From IMG/VR virus record IMGVR_UViG_3300023116_000213, positions 1 through 30,410 of that record: a DNA stretch of 30,410 nucleotides; one strand, 5' to 3'. The notes below the pieces were generated by a model. The model saw only the letters and a program-made list of their open reading frames with translations, was not told the origin of the DNA and made no database searches. Both the position numbers and the translations under genes were made by a program. Of this stretch, positions 1-24,475 are shown piece by piece (the first letter of the stretch is position 1; the number at the start of each line of letters is the position of its first letter). The DNA comes from a virus (Duplodnaviria; Caudoviricetes).

Positions 1-77
1 TCAAGGAAGGAAATCTGTAAAGTTCTCCAATAATTTCTCCCGATAAAAAACCAATATAATACATGAAGATAGGTTAC

Positions 78-152
78 GCTGACTTTTTAGCCTATCAAGA
101 TAGTACGAAGTCTCCAACTTGACAGGCTCGGACAAGTCCTTAAAAAGTCAGC
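78..152. repeat. Inverted repeat / hairpin GCTGACTTTTTA...TAAAAAGTCAGC
   Basis: 12-bp perfect arms at 78-89 and 141-152. Confidence 0.8.
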
Positions 153-183
153 ATCATTTCTTAGACTTATTTGGTTTATCTAG

Positions 184-212
184 TTGACATGGAGTCTATA
201 AAGTTATAAAGT
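184..212 (+). promoter_or_regulatory. sigma70-type early promoter P1
   Basis: TTGACA (184-189), 17-bp spacer, TAAAGT (207-212); predicted start ~219. Confidence 0.7.
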
Positions 213-250
213 AATATACATGTATTATATTAATTTTTTAAGGAGAAATT

Positions 251-469
251 ATGAGTTTAAATAATACTTTACAGATTGACTTCCACTGTGAAGACAATTC
301 CTGTGTATCACTATTCTCTTATGAAAGTGCTTTAGCTTTCATGAAAGAGTCTTACTACATGATTAGGTCTATTTGGTCTAATTCATCTAATGTCGAAGAA
401 AAGCTTTTTGAAGCTTATTTCGAAATTCAAGATAACTATTTAATTGAGGAGGAATTATACAATGAGTAA
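251..469 (+). CDS. Hypothetical early protein (acidic, 72 aa)
   Basis: AGGAGA RBS, downstream of P1. Confidence 0.75.
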   Translation: MSLNNTLQIDFHCEDNSCVSLFSYESALAFMKESYYMIRSIWSNSSNVEEKLFEAYFEIQDNYLIEEELYNE

Positions 470-752
470 ATTTAGTTATGAAAACCTAACCAGAAAGCAA
501 CAACTGGCTCCAGCAAGTTTCAATACCTGCAAACATGTTTCGTTGCACTTTGCGGGAGGTGTTGGATATCAACAACGAACACCGCAACAATGGAATCTTT
601 ATAGAAACTTGCGTTCAACTTTGTATAATTTGACAAAGTCGAAGAAAAAGTCCGAAGTATTTACAATGGAAAAAGCAAACGCTTTGCTCCAAGTAAACAA
701 GCTTCCAAGCATTTACAAAAAAGCAATGGAGGACTTTTTGGAAGGTAAATAA
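462..752 (+). CDS. Hypothetical early protein (basic)
   Basis: ATG 462 preferred over the TTG at 444 because of the GAGGAGG RBS; followed by a terminator. Confidence 0.75.
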   Translation: MSKFSYENLTRKQQLAPASFNTCKHVSLHFAGGVGYQQRTPQQWNLYRNLRSTLYNLTKSKKKSEVFTMEKANALLQVNKLPSIYKKAMEDFLEGK

Positions 753-766
753 TTCCCGACCTTCCC

Positions 767-795
767 AGCCCTTGGAGAAATCCGAGGGCTTTTTT
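767..795 (+). terminator. Rho-independent terminator
   Basis: AGCCCTTGGA-GAAA-TCCGAGGGCT followed by a T-tract. Confidence 0.85.
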
Positions 796-1094
796 ATGCC
801 CTTAAAAAATTTCGCCTCGCCTCTTCGAGGCTCGGTCTTAAAAGGTCTTTTGTTTCACAAAAGGCTCCTATCTTATGAACCGAAGAGGTGAGAGCTAACC
901 AACACAAACCATAAAAAATACTGCGAGGATTTCTCCTATACAGTATATTTATATAAAGACTATAAAACTGTATAGTATTCTAAAGGCAGGAAAATTCTTT
1001 GGCGAAGTGTTGATTGCGACTATAAGAATTTTTATATTATTCTTTTAAAGGTATTAGGAGGAGTTGTTCTAAAGCCCGTTAAAGAACTTTAAAG

Positions 1095-1123
1095 AGTGTA
1101 GCATATTTTTTACTAACTTGCAA
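1095..1123 (-). promoter_or_regulatory. Leftward sigma70-type promoter
   Basis: Minus strand TTGCAA, 17 bp, TACACT, with TGn extended -10; no sizeable ORF downstream. Confidence 0.5.
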
Positions 1124-1176
1124 GATTTGTAACACACTCCCTCGCAACACCCCATATTGATAAGTATATATAAGGC

Positions 1177-1205
1177 TTGACGCTTCGGCAAAGCTGTGCC
1201 ACAAT
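1177..1205 (+). promoter_or_regulatory. sigma70-type early promoter P2
   Basis: TTGACG, 17 bp, CACAAT, with TG extension. Confidence 0.6.
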
Positions 1206-1248
1206 GGTTCCAGAAATCGGAATTGTCCCATTTCAAAACGGAGAAATT

Positions 1249-1437
1249 ATGTTATCTTTTGAATCTTATCAAGGAGCTATTATCCACCTTAAAAAGGAAG
1301 GTTATAAGTTCTTATCAGACTTCTCTAACAGAGGAGATGTTCATAAACATTACTATAAAGGGCAGAGAGTTGTTCTTTTAAATGGGAGCTTTGTTCCCTA
1401 TGAAGGTTATAAATACTATTTACAAGAAGTTAAGTAA
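1249..1437 (+). CDS. Hypothetical early protein (62 aa)
   Basis: GGAGAAATT-ATG at 1240-1251; the TTG at 1177 is the -35 box of P2. Confidence 0.7.
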   Translation: MLSFESYQGAIIHLKKEGYKFLSDFSNRGDVHKHYYKGQRVVLLNGSFVPYEGYKYYLQEVK

Positions 1438-1485
1438 ATACATGTATTATAAAAGAAAAACCACATAGTAAATATTATATAGGTA

Positions 1486-1514
1486 TTGACACCGAAACCA
1501 AGCTGTGTCATACT
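1486..1514 (+). promoter_or_regulatory. sigma70-type early promoter P3
   Basis: TTGACA, 17 bp, CATACT, with TG extension; leader hairpin TCGGC/GCCGA follows. Confidence 0.7.
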
Positions 1515-1558
1515 GTTATCAATTCGGCAATGAAGCCGAGTTTAATTAGGAGAAATTT

Positions 1559-1858
1559 ATGTTTGATAGAAACATTCAAAAATCTAGCTCTACATATGAA
1601 GAGGCTAGAAAAATCGAAGATAAAATTCAGAATGCTGGATTTAAAAGAAGAGAGCAAATTAATCAGTTAATTGATGAAATGCTTACTGAATATAAAGAGT
1701 TGCACAAAGAAACTACAGAGTTTCTACACACTAGAATAAATCGTTGGGATACTCTAGATGTTGTTGTTCGACTATCTCAATACGGAGTAGGGTTGCATAA
1801 ACTTGGAACAGCTTACTCAAATGGTATTAACTCAATTGCTTGTAATAAGCCAGACTAA
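1559..1858 (+). CDS. Hypothetical early protein (helical, 99 aa)
   Basis: AGGAGA RBS; first gene of the P3 operon. Confidence 0.75.
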   Translation: MFDRNIQKSSSTYEEARKIEDKIQNAGFKRREQINQLIDEMLTEYKELHKETTEFLHTRINRWDTLDVVVRLSQYGVGLHKLGTAYSNGINSIACNKPD

Positions 1859-1873
1859 AATATTGGAGGGAAT

Positions 1874-2026
1874 ATGAAATATCATTTTAACATTACGATT
1901 TCAACAGACGATACTGTAGAAGCTACTACAGAAACAGAAGCCATAAGCCAAGTTAAAGCAAACTTTATGCAAGACTTTAACATTCCTTTGTGTGATTCAG
2001 AAATAACTTTATTGGAGGTAGAATGA
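1874..2026 (+). CDS. Small hypothetical protein (50 aa, MKYHFNITISTDD...LLEVE), not in the ORF track
   Basis: GGAGGG RBS; stop overlaps the next ATG (ATGA). Confidence 0.7.
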   Translation: MKYHFNITISTDDTVEATTETEAISQVKANFMQDFNIPLCDSEITLLEVE

Positions 2027-2271
2027 AAACAGTTAGTATAACAGGAGATAAAACAGTCGTTACTTACAAGGGTCATACTGTACATTGTTACGGTAAGCTC
2101 AAAGATACTTCAACAATTATCTATGCTTTATCCAATGGTTGTGAAGGTCATACAGATAACTATGATTATGACAACAATGAGCCTTATACAGATTGGGAAG
2201 CCTTTGTTAAAGATTGGGTAGAACTTGAGGGTGTCGATGATTTTAATGTAATACAATTGGAGGTAGACTAA
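2023..2271 (+). CDS. Hypothetical early protein (acidic)
   Basis: GGAGG RBS, translational coupling. Confidence 0.75.
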   Translation: MKTVSITGDKTVVTYKGHTVHCYGKLKDTSTIIYALSNGCEGHTDNYDYDNNEPYTDWEAFVKDWVELEGVDDFNVIQLEVD

Positions 2272-2468
2272 TGATTGTAGAATTATGTGATAGTAAAAAG
2301 TTCACTGCTTTTAGAACAGATTTAGATAAGGTTTTACAAAAGCATTATCCAAATACTGATTATGAATGGGAATATTACGATGAAGGTTATAGCGATGCTT
2401 CATCAACAGATACTAATGCTAAGTGGCGATTAGTAAGAATCTATATGGACTTAGAGGAGGAATCATGA
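2271..2468 (+). CDS. Hypothetical early protein
   Basis: GGAGG RBS, TAATG overlap. Confidence 0.75.
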   Translation: MIVELCDSKKFTAFRTDLDKVLQKHYPNTDYEWEYYDEGYSDASSTDTNAKWRLVRIYMDLEEES

Positions 2469-2632
2469 AAGACCAAGACGTACTTAAAGAGTACTTTTTA
2501 AATCAACACTTTACCCCTACGGATAAACAACGCAGGGCATTGAATGACTACTTTATGACCAACATGCTAAAGGTTATGGAGGGTAACTATAAGAAAGATG
2601 AAGCAGGAAATATCTTTAAGGAGGAGGAATGA
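2465..2632 (+). CDS. Hypothetical early protein (55 aa)
   Basis: GAGGAGG RBS before ATG 2465, ATGA overlap. Confidence 0.7.
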   Translation: MKDQDVLKEYFLNQHFTPTDKQRRALNDYFMTNMLKVMEGNYKKDEAGNIFKEEE

Positions 2633-2820
2633 CTGAGCTAGAAAAAGTAAATTACTTACAAAATATGTCGCAGTTCTTTGGAGACTTTATAGGTATTGCC
2701 ATGGTGGTATTGGTTGTGCTAATCTTTACGCTGTGGATATTTGCTTGGTGGGCTACATCAAGTACTTTCATAGGTTGTCAAAAGACTAAGGAGAAAAACA
2801 ATGAGAGGTCAGATAGTTAA
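2629..2820 (+). CDS. Small single-pass membrane protein
   Basis: Hydrophobic segment FIGIAMVVLVVLIFTLWIFAWWA with a basic C-terminal tail; AGGAGG RBS. Confidence 0.7.
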   Translation: MTELEKVNYLQNMSQFFGDFIGIAMVVLVVLIFTLWIFAWWATSSTFIGCQKTKEKNNERSDS

Positions 2821-2995
2821 TTGGGAATATGATAATTCACTTACAGAATATGAGAACTTTCGAAGATGGTTCGATTGTGCTAATGAAGAACGCAGAAACT
2901 TTAAAGAACCCGAACTTAGCCTACATGAAGCCAAGGTTAAGTACGAGGAATATATGGGTATTAAACTTAATTTTGAGGAGGGATTTAACGAATGA
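2801..2995 (+). CDS. Hypothetical early protein
   Basis: AGGAGA RBS. Confidence 0.7.
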   Translation: MRGQIVNWEYDNSLTEYENFRRWFDCANEERRNFKEPELSLHEAKVKYEEYMGIKLNFEEGFNE

Positions 2996-3219
2996 GTATT
3001 GATACAATTACAACAGAAACATGGCAGAGTTTATTTGGAGAGCAACTTGCTTCTATGAATGAACTGTCTGCAAAGATGACTGCTCAACAATTTGAAGCAG
3101 TTGTTGAAGAAGCTTTAGAAATTGCTTTCATGGGAGACTATGACGAAGAAAGAGGTTTCAAAGATTATGAAATAACACAAGCTCTGAACGAAGCTATCGT
3201 TAGTTTTATTAGAGTTTAA
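2992..3219 (+). CDS. Hypothetical acidic early protein
   Basis: GAGGAGG RBS, ATGA overlap. Confidence 0.75.
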   Translation: MSIDTITTETWQSLFGEQLASMNELSAKMTAQQFEAVVEEALEIAFMGDYDEERGFKDYEITQALNEAIVSFIRV

Positions 3220-3223
3220 AAGT

Positions 3224-3292
3224 TTGTGGCTAGGGTAGGTCGTAAGACCAACAATATAATACATAAATTTCTCCCTTAAGCCTTAGCCACAA
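3224..3292 (+). ncRNA. Stem-loop RNA displaying an anti-RBS loop (candidate antisense sRNA)
   Basis: Stem TTGTGGCTAGGG/CCTTAGCCACAA; inner GGTC-GTAA-GACC hairpin; loop 3253-3274 is complementary to 220-231 and 1549-1562. Confidence 0.55.
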
Positions 3293-3297
3293 TTTAA

Positions 3298-3620
3298 CAT
3301 AAGTGTAAGACGAGCTTACTGTAAAATCCAGAAGTCTGAACTGTTTTGCAGGGTGACGAAGTAGGTCGTAAGATAAAGTTTAGGATGAGTGCTAGAACCC
3401 GTCGCCTATAACACTATGTAGTCGCAACAGGGACTATAAAACCCTAATGGTTAAAGGTGCTGTTGGAGGAGCTTGATAAGTGCTTCGTAACCAAAAACTT
3501 ATCGTTACTTTAGTTTAAATCCTAGAGTTAGTTTGGATTAGCTATCCTTACTGTATCACTAGGCTTACGGACTGCTAGGTAGAGTAGTCACGTTCTTGGA
3601 GGAAAGCACCTTGAACATTT
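3298..3620 (+). ncRNA. Large multi-stem structured RNA of unknown family
   Basis: ORF-free intergenic region with about ten helices, several needing G-U pairs on the + strand; long-range pairing 3454-3461/3605-3612. Confidence 0.55.
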
Positions 3621-3642
3621 CATTACTTGTAGGAGGGTAATT

Positions 3643-4344
3643 ATGTATAAATTATTAGGAGTTGGTAGTAACTATAAAACTGCAAAGTCAGATAAGATAT
3701 CTGAATATCTCACGGCTATCATGTATATGATGCCACTCAATACTAGAATATGTCCGTATCAAGACATTGCTAAGTGCAAGTCTGCTTGTTTGAATACAGC
3801 GGGACGAGGTGCATTCAGTAATGTACAGAAAGCTAGACTTAGAAAGACCGAATGGTTTCTCAATGACGAGCCTAGTTTCATGGAGCAGTTGTTTCAAGAC
3901 ATCACTAAGTTTGTTCGTCATTGTACTAAGCACGGCAGAAAACCTGCTGTCCGTCTTAATGGTACTTCAGACATTCAATGGGAGTACAAAAAGTATCTTG
4001 GTCAAACTCTGTTCGAACACTTTCCAGAGGTGCAGTTCTATGACTACACTAAGATACCAACACGGAACATAAGTAACATTCCAAACTATCAGCTAACTTG
4101 GAGCTACTCAGAAGCCAATCTCAAGTATGCTGACTTCTTTAGAGAAGCATTAGACAAGGGTATGAATGTGGCGGTGGTATTCAATCACGACTTACCCAAA
4201 GAATTTAAAGGTGTCCCAGTCATTGACGGTGACTTGCATGACTTGCGATTCCTTGACCAGACAAATTCAGTGGTCGGTCTTCGAGCCAAAGGCTCAGCTA
4301 AGAAGGACGATTCTGGCTTTGTAATTAATTTAATCAACTTATAG
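3643..4344 (+). CDS. Gp88-like phage protein (CxxxxxxxCxxxC, possibly Fe-S / radical-SAM-like)
   Basis: Motifs CP...CKSACLNTAGRG, VRLNGTSD, FYDYTK, DGDLHDLRFLD, GLRAKG are typical of the GP88 family. Confidence 0.75.
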   Translation: MYKLLGVGSNYKTAKSDKISEYLTAIMYMMPLNTRICPYQDIAKCKSACLNTAGRGAFSNVQKARLRKTEWFLNDEPSFMEQLFQDITKFVRHCTKHGRKPAVRLNGTSDIQWEYKKYLGQTLFEHFPEVQFYDYTKIPTRNISNIPNYQLTWSYSEANLKYADFFREALDKGMNVAVVFNHDLPKEFKGVPVIDGDLHDLRFLDQTNSVVGLRAKGSAKKDDSGFVINLINL

Positions 4345-4352
4345 GAGGTATT

Positions 4353-4574
4353 ATGACTAAATTAATAATTGAAAAAAATATTCCAATCCCGGCTTATTCA
4401 AGAAGCCAAAAGTGGAAAGCCATTACATCGAGAATGGAAAGAGGCGATTCTGTTTTGTTAGAAAATAGAACTCAAGCTTGTGGCTTAATAAACTCAGCAA
4501 AGTTTATACCCTTTGACATGAAGTTTACTACAAGAAAAACCCCTGAAGGTATTAGAGTTTGGAGGATTCTATAA
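4353..4574 (+). CDS. Small basic phage protein, putative DNA-binding
   Basis: IEKNIPIP...GDSV...GIRVWR pattern is common in phage small proteins. Confidence 0.65.
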   Translation: MTKLIIEKNIPIPAYSRSQKWKAITSRMERGDSVLLENRTQACGLINSAKFIPFDMKFTTRKTPEGIRVWRIL

Positions 4575-4909
4575 TGAAAAATTTATTACGCAAATGGCTT
4601 GGTCTTGTTGACCTTACTAAAGCTGTCAACACTCTTAGAGTACAGATTTTGGACGCTACCAAATCTACTGACGACTTGAAAGACGACATCATTAATGACT
4701 TGGAGTATGAGATAGACCGTAAGGTTGAAGATACTGTTGATGACCAAATCTCAAACTACTCAGATAGGTTTGATGACCTTGACAGTATACGATATGACTT
4801 TGATGACTTCAAAGCTGATTTTGAACAAAAGATAGACTCATTAAAAGAAGACGTTGAGTTCCTATCTATTCTCAATAGACTAGAAGCTTTGGAATCTAAA
4901 GTAAAATAA
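4574..4909 (+). CDS. Acidic helical early protein
   Basis: GGAGG RBS, TAATG overlap; ~29 D/E in 111 aa. Confidence 0.7.
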   Translation: MKNLLRKWLGLVDLTKAVNTLRVQILDATKSTDDLKDDIINDLEYEIDRKVEDTVDDQISNYSDRFDDLDSIRYDFDDFKADFEQKIDSLKEDVEFLSILNRLEALESKVK

Positions 4910-4913
4910 GAGT

Positions 4914-5018
4914 TTTGGCTCAGCAATAATCGGAGTTATCCTCAAATTATTTCGATATCATTGATAGGTTTCAATGAGGGCAACGGGGTAGCCTTGAATA
5001 CCCCACCGCTGAGCCAGA
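4914..5018 (+). ncRNA. Four-way-junction (cloverleaf-like, non-tRNA) structured RNA
   Basis: Closing stem 4914-4924/5008-5018 encloses hairpins 4925-4951, 4958-4977 and 4985-5004. Confidence 0.6.
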
Positions 5019-5033
5019 TTTATTGGAGGTAAT

Positions 5034-5255
5034 ATGATAAATAAAACAGAACTAATGAACTTTATCAGAAACCAAATACATGATGATTTGTTTGTCGAAC
5101 TTTCAGAGGAATGGGAGAACGAAGAAACTTATTATTATAATGCTAATTGGGTTAAAAATATCAGAGAAGCAGAAGATATAACAGAACTAAAAGAAACTTT
5201 GATTACAATAGTCAGAGGTCTTAGTAAATATTTACAGGAAACAAAATGGAACTAA
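5034..5255 (+). CDS. Hypothetical protein
   Basis: GGAGG RBS. Confidence 0.75.
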   Translation: MINKTELMNFIRNQIHDDLFVELSEEWENEETYYYNANWVKNIREAEDITELKETLITIVRGLSKYLQETKWN

Positions 5256-5494
5256 CTAAGAACGAATATGCGATTGCTTACGCAGTCTTTAGCACCAACG
5301 ATATTGATAGTGTCATACTATTTTTTCGTTATCAGAAACCAGATGAAGAAGCTATTAGTAGTAGACTGGTCTTGGTGACTGATGTTAAATGCGACCACCT
5401 GATTGGTACTGAAATAAGTACTGGTCTGAAAAAACGTTTTAACCTAGAAAATATCGTAGACGATTCTTGTAAAGTTTGGACTGAAGTATGCTAG
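5246..5494 (+). CDS. Stand-alone WYL-like domain protein
   Basis: Pattern hhFxYxK..E.SxR.V....L.G......RFxLxxI resembles the WYL (Sm/SH3-like) fold. Confidence 0.5.
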   Translation: MELTKNEYAIAYAVFSTNDIDSVILFFRYQKPDEEAISSRLVLVTDVKCDHLIGTEISTGLKKRFNLENIVDDSCKVWTEVC

Positions 5495-5503
5495 AATAAT
5501 AGC

Positions 5504-5794
5504 ATGACCAAGTTTGAATCTAAAAAGAAAAAACCAGATTGGGATAGTATTTCCACATGGGAAGATGCCAACAATGCTCTTGTTATGTGGGTACTAACTC
5601 CCAACTGTATTCGAGAACGTATGACAGAAACCGGTAAATCTTTTAAGGTTTCTAATGAAATGATATACGAATTTTGTTATCACTCTCGTAGAGGGTGGGA
5701 TATGGAGGCATTCAAAAATGCTTTCAAAGATTTTGTTATTGAGAATCTGGAAGAAGAGATAAAGTTTCAAGAACCTAGGAATTTTATAACATGA
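5504..5794 (+). CDS. Hypothetical protein
   Basis: ORF in operon; weak RBS. Confidence 0.65.
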   Translation: MTKFESKKKKPDWDSISTWEDANNALVMWVLTPNCIRERMTETGKSFKVSNEMIYEFCYHSRRGWDMEAFKNAFKDFVIENLEEEIKFQEPRNFIT

Positions 5795-6289: not shown

Positions 6290-6543
6290 TGGACTATGAT
6301 ATTGGATTTGTCTCAAAGTTTAGAGACCCACATCCCGAAGCACCCGTAGAAGTTTGCTATTGTCTAACCAAAGACCAAGCAAAATTATTCAAGGATATGA
6401 TTGACAATATCTTTGACTACGAAGATAAAATTAATTGGCGAGTAGATATTACTAACAACGGTAATCTGTTGCATTTCTTTGATGAAGATATGTTTCAACA
6501 GATGCACTTGCATTCTATTTTAGAGGAGGTTATGGATAGATGA
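6289..6543 (+). CDS. Hypothetical protein
   Basis: AGGAGG RBS; TGATG overlap (alternative TTG at 6286). Confidence 0.7.
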   Translation: MDYDIGFVSKFRDPHPEAPVEVCYCLTKDQAKLFKDMIDNIFDYEDKINWRVDITNNGNLLHFFDEDMFQQMHLHSILEEVMDR

Positions 6544-16874: not shown

Positions 16875-17306
16875 TTAAGAAACCTTAATTTTCACAGGTT
16901 TTTTCTCTTCAGGTACTATTTTTTCTAAAACTATAGAAAGTAGACCATTCTTTAGAGAAGCTTTTTTAACTACAATGTCTTCTGCTAGATTAAAACTTCT
17001 AGTAAAAGAACGTTGAGCTAAACCTTGATGAATTAAATCATTCTTCTTTTCATCTTTCTTTTCGTAAGAAATGGTTAGTACTCTTTCTTGTAACTCAATA
17101 TCCACATCACTAGCAGATAATCCTGCCATTGCCATTTCAATTGTGTACAACTCACCATCCTGATATAAATTATAAGGTGGGTATGAGTTATTAGATTGCC
17201 TATCTAAGTTTTGTAATTTAGATAGTTTATTAAATAGAGAATCAAACCCGATTAAGGATTTGCTAAATGATGGATGTGTTAAATCCAAAAGATATTTGCT
17301 TGTCAT
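16875..17306 (-). CDS. hsp20: Small heat-shock protein (IbpA/Hsp20)
   Basis: IGFD, YPPYNL, IEMAMAG, HQGLAQRSFTRSF, A.LKNGLLSI.LE..VPEEKKP..I. Confidence 0.95.
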   Translation of the reverse strand: MTSKYLLDLTHPSFSKSLIGFDSLFNKLSKLQNLDRQSNNSYPPYNLYQDGELYTIEMAMAGLSASDVDIELQERVLTISYEKKDEKKNDLIHQGLAQRSFTRSFNLAEDIVVKKASLKNGLLSIVLEKIVPEEKKPVKIKVS

Positions 17307-21600: not shown

Positions 21601-23666
21601 GCTTCATTAGCTTCTCCAGCAAACATGCCTCCAGACTTTTCTAAATTATCAGCGATACCACCTTCGTTATAAATATAGTTCTTTCTAAAATCATCTAATG
21701 TTCTCATGTTATATTTAGCTCTGGTAATAACTTCAGCAGCACTTGTAATATAATCATCAAGAACATTTTCTAAACCGTCTTCTAAAAATATATCTAAATC
21801 GGCATCATCAATGTTTGTAAAAACTCGGCTTTGTAAAAAAGAATAATTATCATTATAAGAAAAGGTTTCAAAAGGAACGTATTTTCTCTCAAGCATATCA
21901 TCAACGATTTTTTCTGCTTTTAATTTCTTTGCTAAGTTCAAAATAGTTTCTTCATCCGCATCTCTACCAGACAATCTGGTTTTTGCCAACTCAACAAAAT
22001 TTATATTAAATACATTTTCATCCGTTACTAATTCGTTAACATCAACACCCTTAACCTGTTTAACTTCTTGTCCTTCTCTAATAAGTATATCTGTATCAAA
22101 TATTTTTTTATTGGCGGCAGCTTTTTCAACATCAATAGGGTCAGCATGTCCGCCTTTAATAATTAATTTTTCTAAAATATCTCTGTGTTTTTTAACTTTA
22201 CTGTAGTTAAATCTTCTTGGAAAATAATCAAGGACTTCAGATTCTTTAGAAAAAACTCCCACTTTATTACCTAATTTAAAAATAGGTTTTAAAACATTTT
22301 CTTTAATGTCCATTGCGGCTTCAATAAGCTCCGGAGAAATAGCCTGACCTTCATATTCTTTTAGTTGAGGGTTTTGTATGACTGCTCGTATTCTTCTTTC
22401 ATCACCTTTAGAGATTCGTCCCATCCATCCCCATCTATCTAAAGTTTTTAAAGCATCTCCTAAGGCATCTCTAAATTGAGCTTTTAATACCATAGCATCT
22501 TCACCAAAACTAAAGCCTTCTTCTGTACCTAAATCAACAGTTCTTACTTTGCCTTTATCGGCAATTTTAGTCATCGTATCAAAAGCATCATACCTAAAGA
22601 CATTCAATGCCTTTTTAAAGCCGTCCTGTTCTGATAATGTTTTAGCTGTTTTTGCTAAAGCCTGTGTTGGTTTTTCAATAAAACCACGACTTAGTAAACC
22701 GGTAATAGTATTAGTATAATCTTTAGGTTCTTTTACTTTCGTAGCTTCTTTACCAAATTTTTCACCGTCAACAAAATCCTGTACGTTATCGATAGCTTTA
22801 TCAGTTTTAATGATTATGTCTTCATCACTGTATTTTGCTAACTTATCAACAAAAGTTTTAGAACCCATACCAGCACCAATTACACCACCAAGGGTACCAC
22901 CAATAGTTCCGCCTAATGCAGTTGTCAGACCCACTTCACCCCAATCAATCTCGTCTCGGACATTGATGTTGACATCGGTACTTTGGTCCATGTAATTATG
23001 AATACCACCAAAACTTGCTCCTTCTAATGCGGCTACTCCTGCTGGTCGTCCTGCTGATTTTGCAGCGGCTTTTATACCAGATTTAATATATGTTTTAACT
23101 CCCTGTTGGGCGGCAACTCTAGCTGCTTCTTTTGCTGCAAAACTAGTTCCGCCTGTAAAAGGAACCATAACCATAGCTAAAAGGTTTAAAGGGTCTCCTA
23201 CTAAATCCCACGCAAAATTTCTAGCAAAGCCTAAAGTTTCTCTAACTCCTCTTAATTCAGCATTATCAAATTGTTCTCTTAAATAAGCATAATCTTGTTT
23301 TTGTTGTTGGGTCCAATTGCCTGATTCAAAACTACGGACTATAGCGGAGGATAAGCTATAATCAGAATCTCTTAGGTATTCAAAAATATTTTCATTTTTA
23401 CCTATACCTTCTAAAAATCTTTCGGCTGCAGCAGAAAACTCTGGGTCTCTTTCTAACTCACTAATACTTTTTTTACGAGGAGCTTGATTAGGTCTTTTAA
23501 AAGGAACATTGCCTGTATAGTCTTCATCAGACGTTACAGTTATTTGGTTTGGAATAGTTGATTGAATAGGTTGAATAGGCTGAATAGGCTGGATAGCCTG
23601 TTGGTTTTCATCTTCTAATTCTTTTAATTGTTTGAGAAAATCTGAATCGGAATAAATGTTGTTCAT
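18615..23666 (-). CDS. Giant polyvalent internal virion/ejection protein with C-terminal ART-like and ParB/Srx-like domains
   Basis: 1683 aa; Gly/Ala-rich hydrophobic N-terminal part, YFPR and MQF..YP motifs; YHGS..FD.F...G.GYYFT (ART-PolyVal-like); EGRHR (ParB-like). Confidence 0.7.
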   Translation of the reverse strand: MNNIYSDSDFLKQLKELEDENQQAIQPIQPIQPIQSTIPNQITVTSDEDYTGNVPFKRPNQAPRKKSISELERDPEFSAAAERFLEGIGKNENIFEYLRDSDYSLSSAIVRSFESGNWTQQQKQDYAYLREQFDNAELRGVRETLGFARNFAWDLVGDPLNLLAMVMVPFTGGTSFAAKEAARVAAQQGVKTYIKSGIKAAAKSAGRPAGVAALEGASFGGIHNYMDQSTDVNINVRDEIDWGEVGLTTALGGTIGGTLGGVIGAGMGSKTFVDKLAKYSDEDIIIKTDKAIDNVQDFVDGEKFGKEATKVKEPKDYTNTITGLLSRGFIEKPTQALAKTAKTLSEQDGFKKALNVFRYDAFDTMTKIADKGKVRTVDLGTEEGFSFGEDAMVLKAQFRDALGDALKTLDRWGWMGRISKGDERRIRAVIQNPQLKEYEGQAISPELIEAAMDIKENVLKPIFKLGNKVGVFSKESEVLDYFPRRFNYSKVKKHRDILEKLIIKGGHADPIDVEKAAANKKIFDTDILIREGQEVKQVKGVDVNELVTDENVFNINFVELAKTRLSGRDADEETILNLAKKLKAEKIVDDMLERKYVPFETFSYNDNYSFLQSRVFTNIDDADLDIFLEDGLENVLDDYITSAAEVITRAKYNMRTLDDFRKNYIYNEGGIADNLEKSGGMFAGEANEANRRKVIAEFEKLYSGVTGVGEFAKKQRVKNKYFTNASDFVRLSQQLAHLPLVTVSSITEPLILLSRVPTKDSGKVMKDIGTAIGKEFGGELNKLFAAGYRSLTGKSTKASTLSKWDDATWREAHKTGLAMEQAIVERLEGMTGDALQNQFMRNISNGFFKATLLEQWTKAVQLASFTTGKRLIRENTEQLYKLKNGTLKLKKKESEFLRNQLAELGIDADDAVNWYSKSLDEAGNFNQTLAENQTFYTDRYMRGASRFTNEVILQPTAAMANKPLWFNSAAGQLLMQFAGYPTVFTNTVLKKFSNQIADTGGVATPRVLTAALLMTGGAFIGNTIRSKGESLREDPSTQVMEAIRRWGGLGALDYGIRFRRNIELGDPLPAAAAKTPFGPAVQDAFDWIQSRKSVADLVATNFPGYAAWDLIGGPGAKADVRSNARQITRKEQEFLKRALLIEEEEKGRRRFTEGGLVEGITDISEDEQMDRLGLSIGGPLVSKLSKALLKKGIPDKRPSAYHGSPTKFDEFDDLKKGGAMEDGVGYYFTDVEDYAKTFAGDKAGLKNVYKTKLNVLDEELINPHKGLKVKAMLDRDYGPDSLMSKKETDKIIKAVKNVQKDLREKGFDNEADKLQDYLDSGNLYKVIQGYERLFSRDNFYNPISDTRGTSINLKYPLIQDALKEQGFKGLKIEQNYRVNPVGEEGIFKPQTTYVLFDKKDIQDLTRKEFGEIGSRASSDIEPAYMGLTRADIREATSFDEYYNNLGEQIPNAFVMRMPTKDYLKLTTSSKKQIDKIKKEVEEGYEGGRKFGKFNPDKVDDRSYPIYLYIDKNGKVLSHEGRHRAALVEAEGGNTVPVVIHLKEEPKTGVLDTPMSKIKKPKDLGIYRLINQFDNDFDFSLRKEDVALVRRLNFREDIDNAVSVANQSDRLKFAKGGTPITLYYIGETSAERLGATEGGLVKGLVDVPNVKDNPADTINKTTGLTYSGKTPVQQQMDDLLEEIV
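18747..20214. repeat. Exact 19-bp direct repeat AACTAATCCGCCTTCTGTA (18747-18765 and 20196-20214)
   Basis: Direct sequence comparison; both copies encode TEGGLV. Confidence 0.9.
23563..23598. repeat. 9-bp tandem repeat (TGAATAGGY x3, plus one degenerate copy) encoding IQP repeats
   Basis: Seen directly in the sequence. Confidence 0.85.
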
Positions 23667-24475
23667 TATAATATCTTTCCTAAATTAATAGTAACTTTGC
23701 TTCCTTCACCTTCGCCACTACCGAAGTACTTTGCTACATTTCTAGCTTGAGAATAAGGATTTAATCCTGCATTCTTTACTCCTTTTAGAAAATCAGTAAA
23801 AATAAATTGACCTTGTTTATCATTAAAATTATATTGGTCTTCGATAATAACGTTACCATTATCATCAGTTTTAATAACTGCTTGTCCAATAGTTGTTTTC
23901 ATAGAATATGAAGGGTCTTGTAGCTTTCCGTACATATCAAAGAGATTCATTTTACCACCGCCAACATCAGCATATTGATTTTGACCCGTTTGATAATCGT
24001 CATAAGTAATTGCATCGCTACCACGAGCTTTAGCATTTTTAACAACTTGTACTAATGCTTCTCTTTCTTTACTAGATAAATCATCAACTGTAATATCTTC
24101 GCGACCTCCAAACAAATCATGGAAAAACTGCCTAACATTAAGTGGCACTGTTTTATCTCTTTCTCTTGGAGGAGGAGCCTTATCTCCGGCTTTAATAGCT
24201 TTTCTTTCTTGTGCTTTACCTTCTTCTAAAACAAACTGTGGTCCAACGAACTCTTGTTTTTGGATTTGCACAGCTTTGTTATTTTCTTTAATTTTAACTA
24301 GGTCTTCTTGCATCTTTTCCAGTTTGTCTTCTGGTTTATTTACAATTAATCTGGACCCAGCAAAAATTAAATCTGGATTGTCAATCTTATTATCTTTGAC
24401 TAACTGAGAAACTGTTGTATCAAATTTCTGAGCAATCTGCGATAATGTATCACCTCTTTTAATTCTATACTTCAT
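23666..24475 (-). CDS. LysM-domain virion protein
   Basis: YRIKRGDTLSQIAQKFDTTVSQLVKDNKIDNPDLIFAGSRLIV is a canonical LysM domain. Confidence 0.85.
   Translation of the reverse strand: MKYRIKRGDTLSQIAQKFDTTVSQLVKDNKIDNPDLIFAGSRLIVNKPEDKLEKMQEDLVKIKENNKAVQIQKQEFVGPQFVLEEGKAQERKAIKAGDKAPPPRERDKTVPLNVRQFFHDLFGGREDITVDDLSSKEREALVQVVKNAKARGSDAITYDDYQTGQNQYADVGGGKMNLFDMYGKLQDPSYSMKTTIGQAVIKTDDNGNVIIEDQYNFNDKQGQFIFTDFLKGVKNAGLNPYSQARNVAKYFGSGEGEGSKVTINLGKIL

What the first reader, a model, noticed from the sequence alone, without database searches (positions are those of the whole stretch)
5..284. Upstream antisense copy of the first early mRNA: complementarity starts exactly at the predicted TSS
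Seen: 5-65 is complementary, in five blocks totalling 48 bp, to 219-284. That target covers the leader, SD, start codon and first ~11 codons of ORF 251. The complementarity begins at 219, the predicted +1 of promoter P1. The block ATAATTTCTCC (30-40) is also the perfect complement of the RBS of the first P2 gene (1240-1250). Inference: a + strand RNA starting left of the window, with hairpin 78-152 near its 3' end, could silence the immediate-early genes, as antitoxin RNAs do in type I toxin-antitoxin systems. A read-through transcript could instead fold back on this RBS.
Basis: partly seen in the sequence, partly recalled or inferred. Interest (0 to 1): 0.75.

Follow-up and report, generated by a model that had tools for sequence, protein, structure and literature searches.

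The report
Mirror copy of phage's first operon
This marine phage and its relatives keep a non-coding mirror copy of their first two genes beside the likely genome end; it co-evolves with those genes and likely lets one DNA strand fold back into a working promoter, as known for conjugative plasmids, although single-stranded DNA has not been shown here.

Summary
The complementarity is real (five blocks, 48 bp; fold z -7.6 to -9.4) and larger than reported. An overlapping contig extends it leftwards in collinear blocks into gene 2. Among 60 relatives, all 25 with this two-gene operon carry a 70-620 nt mirror arm; the other 35 have neither. The arms show compensatory double changes, so this is not decay or an artefact.

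The + strand antisense-RNA reading is only partly supported. Mismatches favour pairing on the minus (template) strand (128 vs 43). Relatives pair beyond both ends of the mRNA. The inner hairpin rebuilds a -35/16-nt/-10 promoter aimed at the same +1 as P1. Its apex recurs in an unrelated contig in front of an ssDNA-binding gene.

Best reading (0.45): an Frpo-like single-stranded-DNA promoter whose fold extends over the first operon. Main rival (0.25): read-through RNA from a perfect upstream promoter folding back to silence the operon. No route to ssDNA is shown, and one clade folds better on +. The scan noted a similar kilobase fold-back in another marine phage before (e1-9703416).

The parts
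1..70 (.). Non-coding mirror arm: imperfect reverse complement of the leader, SD and first codons of gene 1 (214-295). It continues left of the window to about -48 with blocks matching 400-413 and 492-502.
   Evidence: L004
76..154 (-). Inner hairpin. In the minus-strand fold it is a 21-22 bp duplex running from the -35 box to the edge of a bubble, with an 18-nt apex (100-117) conserved in L009, L012 and the unrelated contig L097.
71..98 (-). Predicted non-template strand of the fold-dependent promoter: TTGATA (98-93), 16 nt, TAACCT (76-71). Predicted +1 at 65/64, which pairs opposite 219/220. Variants: TACGAT (L091), TACATT (L009), TAACAT (L012).
   Evidence: function inferred
119..124 (+). 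TTGACA, the gene-side half of the -35 duplex. In dsDNA no -10 box follows it at the right spacing because 128-140 is inserted.
130..139 (.). Small side hairpin looped out of the spacer, with a G131/C138 to T/A double change in L004.
184..212 (+). Conventional sigma70-like promoter P1 (TTGACA-17-TAAAGT, 10/12), predicted +1 at 219/220; looped out in the fold.
251..469 (+). Gene 1, 72 aa, no known family; beta-beta-alpha-beta-alpha model (pLDDT 89). Homologues are the first gene in all 25 arm-bearing loci.
462..752 (+). Gene 2, 96 aa, helical, no known family; 70 environmental homologues without Pfam domains.
767..797 (+). Intrinsic terminator-like site ending the first operon. Long arms in relatives end at or just beyond it.
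814..940 (-). Two minus-strand terminator-like sites (831-814 and about 940-913) that would block leftward transcription into the operon.

Best explanation
The 5-70 segment is the inner part of a conserved mirror arm that likely lets the minus (template) strand of the phage's predicted left end fold back on itself when single-stranded, rebuilding a sigma70 promoter in hairpin 76-154 and stapling the first two genes into a pseudo-duplex, so that host RNA polymerase would start at the same +1 as P1. Shown: the arm, its co-occurrence with the two-gene operon, compensatory change, the strand bias of the wobble pairs, and -35/-10-like boxes with this geometry. Inferred: that the G+C-rich motif about 150 nt left of the window is the genome end; that the minus strand is ever single-stranded there (candidate routes are a 3' tail after replication or end resection, or a nick in the top strand); that RNA polymerase uses the fold; and whether the product is mRNA for genes 1-2 or a primer for second-strand synthesis. 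P1 would take over once the DNA is double-stranded.
For: (1) The arm is present in 25 of 25 loci with genes 1-2 and in 0 of 35 without them. (2) Watson-Crick double changes: 14 of 18 both-side changes in L057/L073, 11 of 13 in L060/L084, 4 of 4 in L009/L012, 3 of 4 in L066/L079. (3) + strand A.C 128 vs G.T 43 over 10 lineages, i.e. G.T wobble on the minus strand. The asymmetry product is 7.2 (bootstrap 2.1-19), against about 1.3 that I derive from the local GC skew of -0.12 in arm-less relatives. (4) Pairing extends outside the P1 mRNA: over the P1 -35 box in long arms, and between the putative end motif and DNA downstream of the terminator in 8 of 9 loci tested, each with 0 of 200 shuffles as good. 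In L066 and L059 the terminator hairpin itself is left unpaired. (5) The template-strand DNA fold places a TTG -35 box in duplex, with a break 20-26 nt later, in window/L004, L091, L059, L060, L061, L071, L073, L084 and L097. In the window lineage this promoter is separate from P1, and its -10 keeps T-12, A-11 and T-7 in four sequence variants. (6) The same apex and bulged architecture occur in L097, a 97.5-kb contig unrelated to the phage, upstream of and overlapping a PC4/YdbC ssDNA-binding gene (A.C 6, G.T 0; z -10.4). (7) The F plasmid region upstream of ssb gives a similar imperfect hairpin that folds better on the template strand. (8) Frpo features and 3' single-stranded DTR tails are described in passages of PMC9849209, PMC11541004, PMC12672017 and PMC6775973.
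Against: No single-stranded state and no genome end is shown. No strand-biased nick-like motif was found in the window. L059 has the opposite wobble bias (0:6), and whole-region RNA folds favoured the + strand in 4 of 5 short or skeletal arms (L059, L066, L067, L082). The -35-plus-bubble geometry is absent or unclear in L008, L011, L012 (MFE), L041, L057, L058, L066, L067, L079 and L082. The -10 box on the arm is poor in L071, L084, L041 and L059. In long arms the -35 duplex is simply P1 mirrored. The window lineage lacks the end-motif/post-terminator helix (190 of 200 shuffles as good), and those test windows were chosen by eye. Long perfect helices are depleted most when minus-strand wobbles count as breaks (7 vs 21 expected; 27 vs 41 if they count as pairs), so A.C pairs could instead be selected interruptions of a + strand duplex. 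The nature of L097 is unknown, and 0 of 5 plasmid ydbC genes have such a hairpin. RNA contigs cover the arm in 2 of 4 runs.
Confidence: 0.45

Rival explanations
1. Cis silencing of read-through RNA: on concatemers or circles, the perfect + strand promoter beside the TerS promoter transcribes across the genome junction. The arm then folds onto the leader and genes so that only P1-started mRNA is translated. In long arms it would also disable the terminator.
For: The 12/12 promoter is present in all 14 loci listed and in L004. Pairing is densest on the gene 1 start, with blocks near the gene 2 start. One RNA-library contig (X15, L004 5172-5579) bridges arm and gene 1, and X16 covers 5253-5506. 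+ strand RNA folds are better in L059, L066, L067 and L082. Helix length is capped, as would suit avoidance of long dsRNA (inference).
Against: G.U pairs are depleted on the + strand. Outer helices lie beyond an unpaired terminator in L066, L059 and L009. This model gives no reason for the -35/-10 geometry or the L097 apex. The same promoter exists in arm-less relatives and in HTVC103P/115P. No listed RNA contig crosses L004 5088-5171 (a hole proves nothing).
Confidence: 0.25
2. Trans-acting antisense RNA: a + strand RNA ending near hairpin 78-152 binds the P1 mRNA and perhaps other early leaders.
For: The arm starts at the predicted +1 and covers SD and start codon. The shared leader GGAGAAATT at 242, 1240 and 1549 could be a common target. 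An upstream promoter exists.
Against: There is no terminator after the hairpin. The wobble bias is on the wrong strand, and pairing extends outside the mRNA. A right-end copy under the promoter would need the terminal repeat to include arms of up to 620 nt. Cobavirus DTRs are 159-173 bp (PMC6775973), and the phiM6 record starts only about 55 nt from the homologous motif (whether that is a physical end is not known).
Confidence: 0.1
3. End-processing structure without promoter function: the 3' end of the minus strand folds back to its partner beyond the terminator, and is protected or primes DNA synthesis during replication, concatemer formation or terminal-repeat duplication.
For: The motif pairs with post-terminator DNA in 8 of 9 loci, with matching motif variants (GGTCACC/GGTGACC, GGTCTCC/GGAGACC). 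The minus-strand wobble bias fits. Cobavirus DTR 5' ends carry a conserved G+C-rich region.
Against: The window lineage lacks this helix. Thirty-five relatives with the same packaging module have no arm. The strict link to genes 1-2 points to their expression, unless the proteins act on the structure.
Confidence: 0.12
4. A leftward (minus-strand) RNA, perfectly antisense to the operon and masked by its own imperfect 3' arm, like the outward-facing P001 transcript of LUZ19.
For: The wobble bias fits a minus-strand RNA equally well. LUZ19 has a leftward early-region promoter (PMC10914365).
Against: No conserved leftward promoter lies right of the operon, and minus-strand terminator-like sites stand in the way in the window and L008. 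No RNA polymerase gene was noticed among the window's ORFs (only 25 were scanned against PHROGs), and the record is 59% complete.
Confidence: 0.05
5. A by-product without function: an inverted duplication refreshed by template switching.
For: Template switching can copy changes between arms (established knowledge, not tested here). Cultured relatives HTVC103P and HTVC115P have no arm.
Against: The arms keep regular bulges, a cap on perfect runs and a strand-specific mismatch spectrum. Skeletal arms keep collinear 9-15 bp blocks across about 1 kb. Co-occurrence with genes 1-2 is complete.
Confidence: 0.05

Closest known systems
Frpo1/Frpo2 of F and ssi1-3 / class 1-3 ssDNA promoters of IncI1 plasmids (passages of PMC9849209, PMC11541004, PMC12672017; Masai and Arai 1997 seen only as cited there)
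   Same: Imperfect long hairpin upstream of the first genes. -35 and -10 boxes are rebuilt in the folded template strand. The template strand folds better than the coding strand (F control).
   Different: This lies in a tailed-phage genome, not a conjugative leading region. I saw no sequence likeness to the F ssb hairpin by eye. The arm runs over whole genes, up to 620 nt, to the terminator. A normal promoter P1 sits beside it. No ssDNA stage is known.
Type I toxin-antitoxin antisense RNAs and hok mRNA fold-back (recalled, not looked up)
   Same: Complementarity covers the SD and start codon of a small gene.
   Different: No hydrophobic toxin; no terminated sRNA; wobble bias on the other strand; pairing extends beyond the mRNA.
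LUZ19 P001 outward-facing promoter of Phikmvvirus (passages of PMC10914365)
   Same: A promoter-like sequence pointing toward the left genome end, next to the early genes. In dsDNA the arm's boxes would also point left.
   Different: P001 is read by a phage RNA polymerase, and no mirror copy of genes is described in the passages seen.
Terminal inverted repeats reported for roseophage SIO1 (passages of PMC6775973)
   Same: Inverted repeats of several hundred bases near the ends of a two-armed marine podovirus genome.
   Different: Those were judged probable misassembly. The arms here are imperfect, lineage-specific and covary, so they are not assembly products.
HTVC103P-type pelagiphages (TerL 62-63%, TerS 50-54%; passages of bioRxiv 2019.12.14.876532)
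   Same: Closest cultured relatives, with the same divergent promoter pair and G+C-rich motif beside TerS.
   Different: HTVC103P and HTVC115P show no arm above shuffles; HTVC104P was not examined. The host of this phage is unknown.

Membership tests
Frpo/ssi ssDNA promoters | Large imperfect stem-loop in the template strand upstream of the first genes | tested here: met
   (z -9.4); covariation in relatives
Frpo/ssi ssDNA promoters | -35 and -10 boxes rebuilt by the fold | tested here: met
   Window lineage: TTGATA/TTGACA-16-TAACCT and three variants. Not met in several other lineages, and the -10 is only 3/6 in the window.
Frpo/ssi ssDNA promoters | Sequence similarity to known Frpo/ssi | tested here: inconclusive
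   Only F regions were folded and inspected; the published Frpo set (supplement of PMC11541004) was not read.
Frpo/ssi ssDNA promoters | Location in the leading region of a conjugative element transferred as ssDNA | tested here: not met
   The context is a tailed phage with TerS, TerL, portal, primase-helicase and DNA polymerase.
Frpo/ssi ssDNA promoters | Active on ssDNA, silent for the gene on dsDNA | not testable with these tools
   Needs in vitro transcription.
Type I TA antisense RNA | Small hydrophobic toxin target | tested here: not met
   Gene 1 is hydrophilic/acidic with a soluble fold and no family hit.
Type I TA antisense RNA | Discrete antisense RNA with its own promoter and terminator | tested here: inconclusive
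   Promoter about 420 nt upstream; no terminator after 152; RNA contigs are unstranded; no Rfam match below E 0.95.
Assembly artefact / chimera | Perfect or near-perfect repeat confined to one assembly | tested here: not met
   74% identity. The same arm occurs in several near-identical contigs, and different arms occur in other lineages.

The most novel reading that the evidence does not exclude
A group of marine double-stranded-DNA podoviruses exposes the template strand of its left end as single-stranded DNA and carries a co-evolving mirror strand that folds it into a pseudo-duplex transcription unit (promoter, two genes, terminator, end cap), so that the first genes are expressed from a folded single-stranded genome end.
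Probability: 0.3. Interest if true: 0.92.

Novelty: new variant of a known kind. Interest (0 to 1): 0.72.

Why it matters
ssDNA promoters are established for conjugative plasmids, where DNA enters as one strand. A tailed phage is assumed to transcribe duplex DNA. If this fold is a promoter, these phages have an unrecognised single-stranded stage at one end, and the two unknown genes become prime candidates for first-minute host takeover or anti-defence functions. Under the RNA rival it would be a gene-length, deliberately interrupted antisense copy that silences a whole operon in cis, which is also unusual. Eight literature searches listed no paper describing either for this phage group; the library lacks most subscription papers.

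Tried and rejected
Family and structure searches. Rfam on 1-5100 gave three matches at E 0.95-4.1, all far below gathering scores. BLASTn of 1-1600 against cultured phages gave only short chance hits. Genes 1 and 2 had no significant match in PHROGs, Pfam, Foldseek-PDB or the ESM Atlas, and gene 2 none in VIA (best Z 4.5); VIA was not run for gene 1. This does not show that the folds are new.

Apex and L097 follow-up. The apex pattern gave 0 hits in genome contigs, and a relaxed pattern gave 2 hits inside coding DNA with no hairpin. The L097 hairpin had no plasmid match, its record is not held, and 5 of 5 plasmid ydbC genes lack such a hairpin.

Genome ends. Contig ends of 20 short loci did not cluster at the motif. 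The record classes of 5 relatives were all 'linear'. No strand-biased nick motif was found. Read-level data from DNA runs were not obtained, so termini and within-population covariation stay open.

Method notes. The first inverted-repeat scan used scoring that was too loose and was redone. L031 (score 52, AT-rich, far from the motif), L055 and L081 (scores 55 and 59, arms more than 700 nt apart) were not counted as arms. The minus-strand ORF starting at 64 (MYYIG..., 59 aa in L004) has no SD and no counterpart seen in relatives; I rejected it as a gene. The promoter weights are recalled approximations.

Full report
OBSERVATION. The 1-300 region folds far better than shuffles on either strand, as RNA or DNA (z -7.6, -8.8, -7.8, -9.4), and BLAST gives E 3e-6. 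The match of 30-40 to 1240-1250 is exact but follows from a leader shared by three early genes.

CONTEXT. The window is a whole linear virus record, 59% complete. It has T7-like primase-helicase, DNA polymerase and SSB genes on a + arm and converging minus-strand genes. Its closest cultured relatives by terminase are the HTVC103P-type pelagiphages. Contig L004 is 99.7% identical over 3,555 nt and adds 5.2 kb on the left. It carries portal, TerL and TerS, two divergent perfect sigma70 promoters (L004 4780-4752 toward TerS, 4790-4818 toward the window) and a G+C-rich motif at about 5078-5106. I read that motif as the likely left end by analogy with cobavirus terminal repeats, whose 5' ends have a conserved G+C-rich region (passages of PMC6775973). 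This is not shown. With L004 the arm extends to -7..3/289-304, -37..-24/400-413 and -48..-38/492-502; the chain of outer blocks was matched by 16 of 1000 shuffles.

CONSERVATION. A TerS search returned the best 80 of 580 confirmed loci; 60 had enough upstream DNA. Twenty-three show an inverted repeat well above shuffles next to the motif (70-620 nt), and L067 and L082 have skeletal arms of collinear 9-15 bp blocks. Exactly these 25 encode homologues of genes 1 and 2; the other 35 encode neither. The profiles were built from arm-bearing loci, but L067 and L082 were found by their genes first. Many of the 25 are near-duplicates; they form roughly eight to ten lineages. Long arms span promoter to terminator of the two-gene operon. 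Each arm mirrors its own lineage's genes, although the proteins share only 8-53% identity with the window's.

COVARIATION. Of 16 pairwise comparisons, 11 had both-side changes, mostly Watson-Crick to Watson-Crick: 14 of 18, 11 of 13, 5 of 9, 4 of 4, 4 of 6, 3 of 4, 3 of 5, 2 of 2, 2 of 2, 1 of 1 and 1 of 2. Four very close pairs had none, and L006/L009 could not be mapped. Only columns paired in both loci were counted, which leans toward the structure. Among near-identical contigs of the window lineage there is no double change in the main arm. A11C and C52T each add a pair, C15T would break one (its partner is not covered), and the side hairpin has a G131/C138 double change. HTVC103P and HTVC115P have no arm. 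Perfect runs of 15 bp or more are depleted in seven long arms (7 vs 21 expected), so interruptions appear to be selected. The feature is therefore not an artefact or simple decay.

WHICH STRAND. Over 10 lineage representatives that I chose, + strand A.C oppositions outnumber G.T by 128 to 43. Both orientations are enriched, and 9 of 10 lineages agree; L059 is reversed, 0 to 6. These oppositions are G.T/G.U wobbles on the minus strand. The local GC skew is the same with and without an arm (-0.10, -0.12) and by my derivation predicts an asymmetry near 1.3, against 7.2 observed (bootstrap 2.1-19). Against this reading, whole-region RNA folds favoured the + strand in L059, L066, L067 and L082. The cap on helix length is also weaker when minus wobbles count as pairs (27 vs 41), so A.C could be selected breaks in a + strand duplex.

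RNA OR DNA. Pairing reaches outside the P1 message. Long arms include P1's -35 box. The end motif has an inverted partner about 30-180 nt past the arm end or terminator in most arm lineages, against 2 of 27 arm-less loci at p<0.01. A duplex test on windows chosen by eye was significant in 8 of 9 loci; the exception is the window's own lineage. In L066 and L059 these helices lie beyond a terminator that the arm leaves intact, which a + strand RNA could reach only by read-through. A minus-strand RNA would need a leftward promoter and would meet terminator-like sites at 831-814 and about 940-913. That leaves single-stranded DNA as the simplest carrier.

PROMOTER GEOMETRY. In the minus-strand DNA fold of the window, TTGATA (98-93) pairs with the template of TTGACA (119-124). 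The 16-nt spacer is duplex with 128-140 looped out, TAACCT (76-71) is unpaired, and bases 65/64 sit opposite 219/220. This explains why the complementarity starts at the predicted +1: the arm would be the non-template strand of a promoter with the same start as P1. L091, L009 and L012 have TACGAT, TACATT and TAACAT at the same spacing. A duplex -35 with a break 20-26 nt later also appears in L059, L060, L061, L071, L073 and L084. It is absent or unclear in L008, L011, L012 (MFE), L041, L057, L058, L066, L067, L079 and L082, and several arms have a poor -10.

THE L097 CONTIG. A pattern scan with the apex found 9 metagenome stretches. Eight are this phage group. One, L097, lies in an unrelated 97.5-kb contig, where the apex tops a 144/163-nt bulged hairpin that overlaps a PC4/YdbC ssDNA-binding gene, with the same strand bias and a -35 duplex followed by a bubble at 23 nt. 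What kind of element L097 is could not be determined, and five plasmid ydbC genes lack the hairpin. The F plasmid region upstream of ssb, used as a control, gave a comparable imperfect hairpin that folds better on the template strand.

EXPRESSION DATA. Six salt-marsh RNA runs hold part of the stretch; four were laid, as unstranded contigs. X15 bridges L004 5172-5579 and X16 covers 5253-5506, while the X17 and X18 contigs start about 40 nt after the P1 start. No listed piece crosses 5088-5171, and 6320-6420 is empty in all four. DNA carry-over is not excluded. This keeps the read-through RNA rival alive but gives no strand.

THE GENES. Neither protein has a family or structural match. Gene 1 is not toxin-like.

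COMPARISON AND VERDICT. The element works most plausibly like Frpo/ssi promoters, which rebuild -35 and -10 boxes on ssDNA and can also prime replication (passages of PMC9849209, PMC11541004 and PMC12672017; their supplements were not read). It is not a member of that family: it is not in a conjugative leading region, and its arm covers whole genes. The missing step is a single-stranded minus strand. Precedents seen in passages are 3' tails at terminal repeats during T7-like replication and top-strand nicks in phage tf (PMC3517423), but I found no nick-like motif here. LUZ19's leftward promoter (passages of PMC10914365) and phage Matilda's terminal repeats (abstract only) are different things. 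Odds: ssDNA promoter fold 0.45, read-through RNA silencing 0.25, end-processing hairpin 0.12, trans antisense 0.10, minus-strand RNA 0.05, no function 0.05. Interest 0.72.

Noticed in passing
window 3224-3292: A 13-bp + strand hairpin after ORF 2992 whose loop holds TATAATACATAAATTTCTCC, 18 of 20 complementary to the SD/start of ORF 1559 (1549-1568). No homologue was found in L008, L009 or L012.
   Followed up: partly
window 1001-1014; L008, L009, L012: Conserved non-coding motif GGCGAAGTGTTGAT downstream of the first operon, twice in L008. Found in 4 of 22 arm loci and 0 of 31 others. Possible protein-binding site or leftward -35 region.
   Followed up: partly
window 3300-3640: A 340-nt non-coding region before the GP88 gene, with segments 87-95% identical in L009 and L012. 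Could be a structured RNA; no Rfam match.
   Followed up: no
window 216-229 and 1438-1451: Exact 14-nt repeat ATACATGTATTATA with a palindromic core, at the P1 start and just before promoter P3. Possible operator.
   Followed up: no
window 220-264: A leaderless 14-codon ORF starting at the predicted +1 overlaps the gene 1 SD. A similar one is visible in L009; in L012 it is in frame with gene 1.
   Followed up: no
L097 1460-1785: Frpo-like hairpin (z -10.4) overlapping a PC4/YdbC gene next to a DUF5688 gene in a 97.5-kb contig of unknown kind, sharing its apex with the marine phage.
   Followed up: partly
L019, L025, L054, L076, just past the G+C-rich motif: Arm-less relatives carry many short TTGACA/TGTCAA and AACTT repeats at the same position, perhaps a different RNA-polymerase-binding device.
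   Followed up: no
window 16875-17306; 23666-24475: An Hsp20 gene at the junction of the two gene arms and a LysM-domain protein in the virion module.
   Followed up: no
L004 2809-4159: A run of small, very lysine-rich ORFs between TerS and TerL.
   Followed up: no
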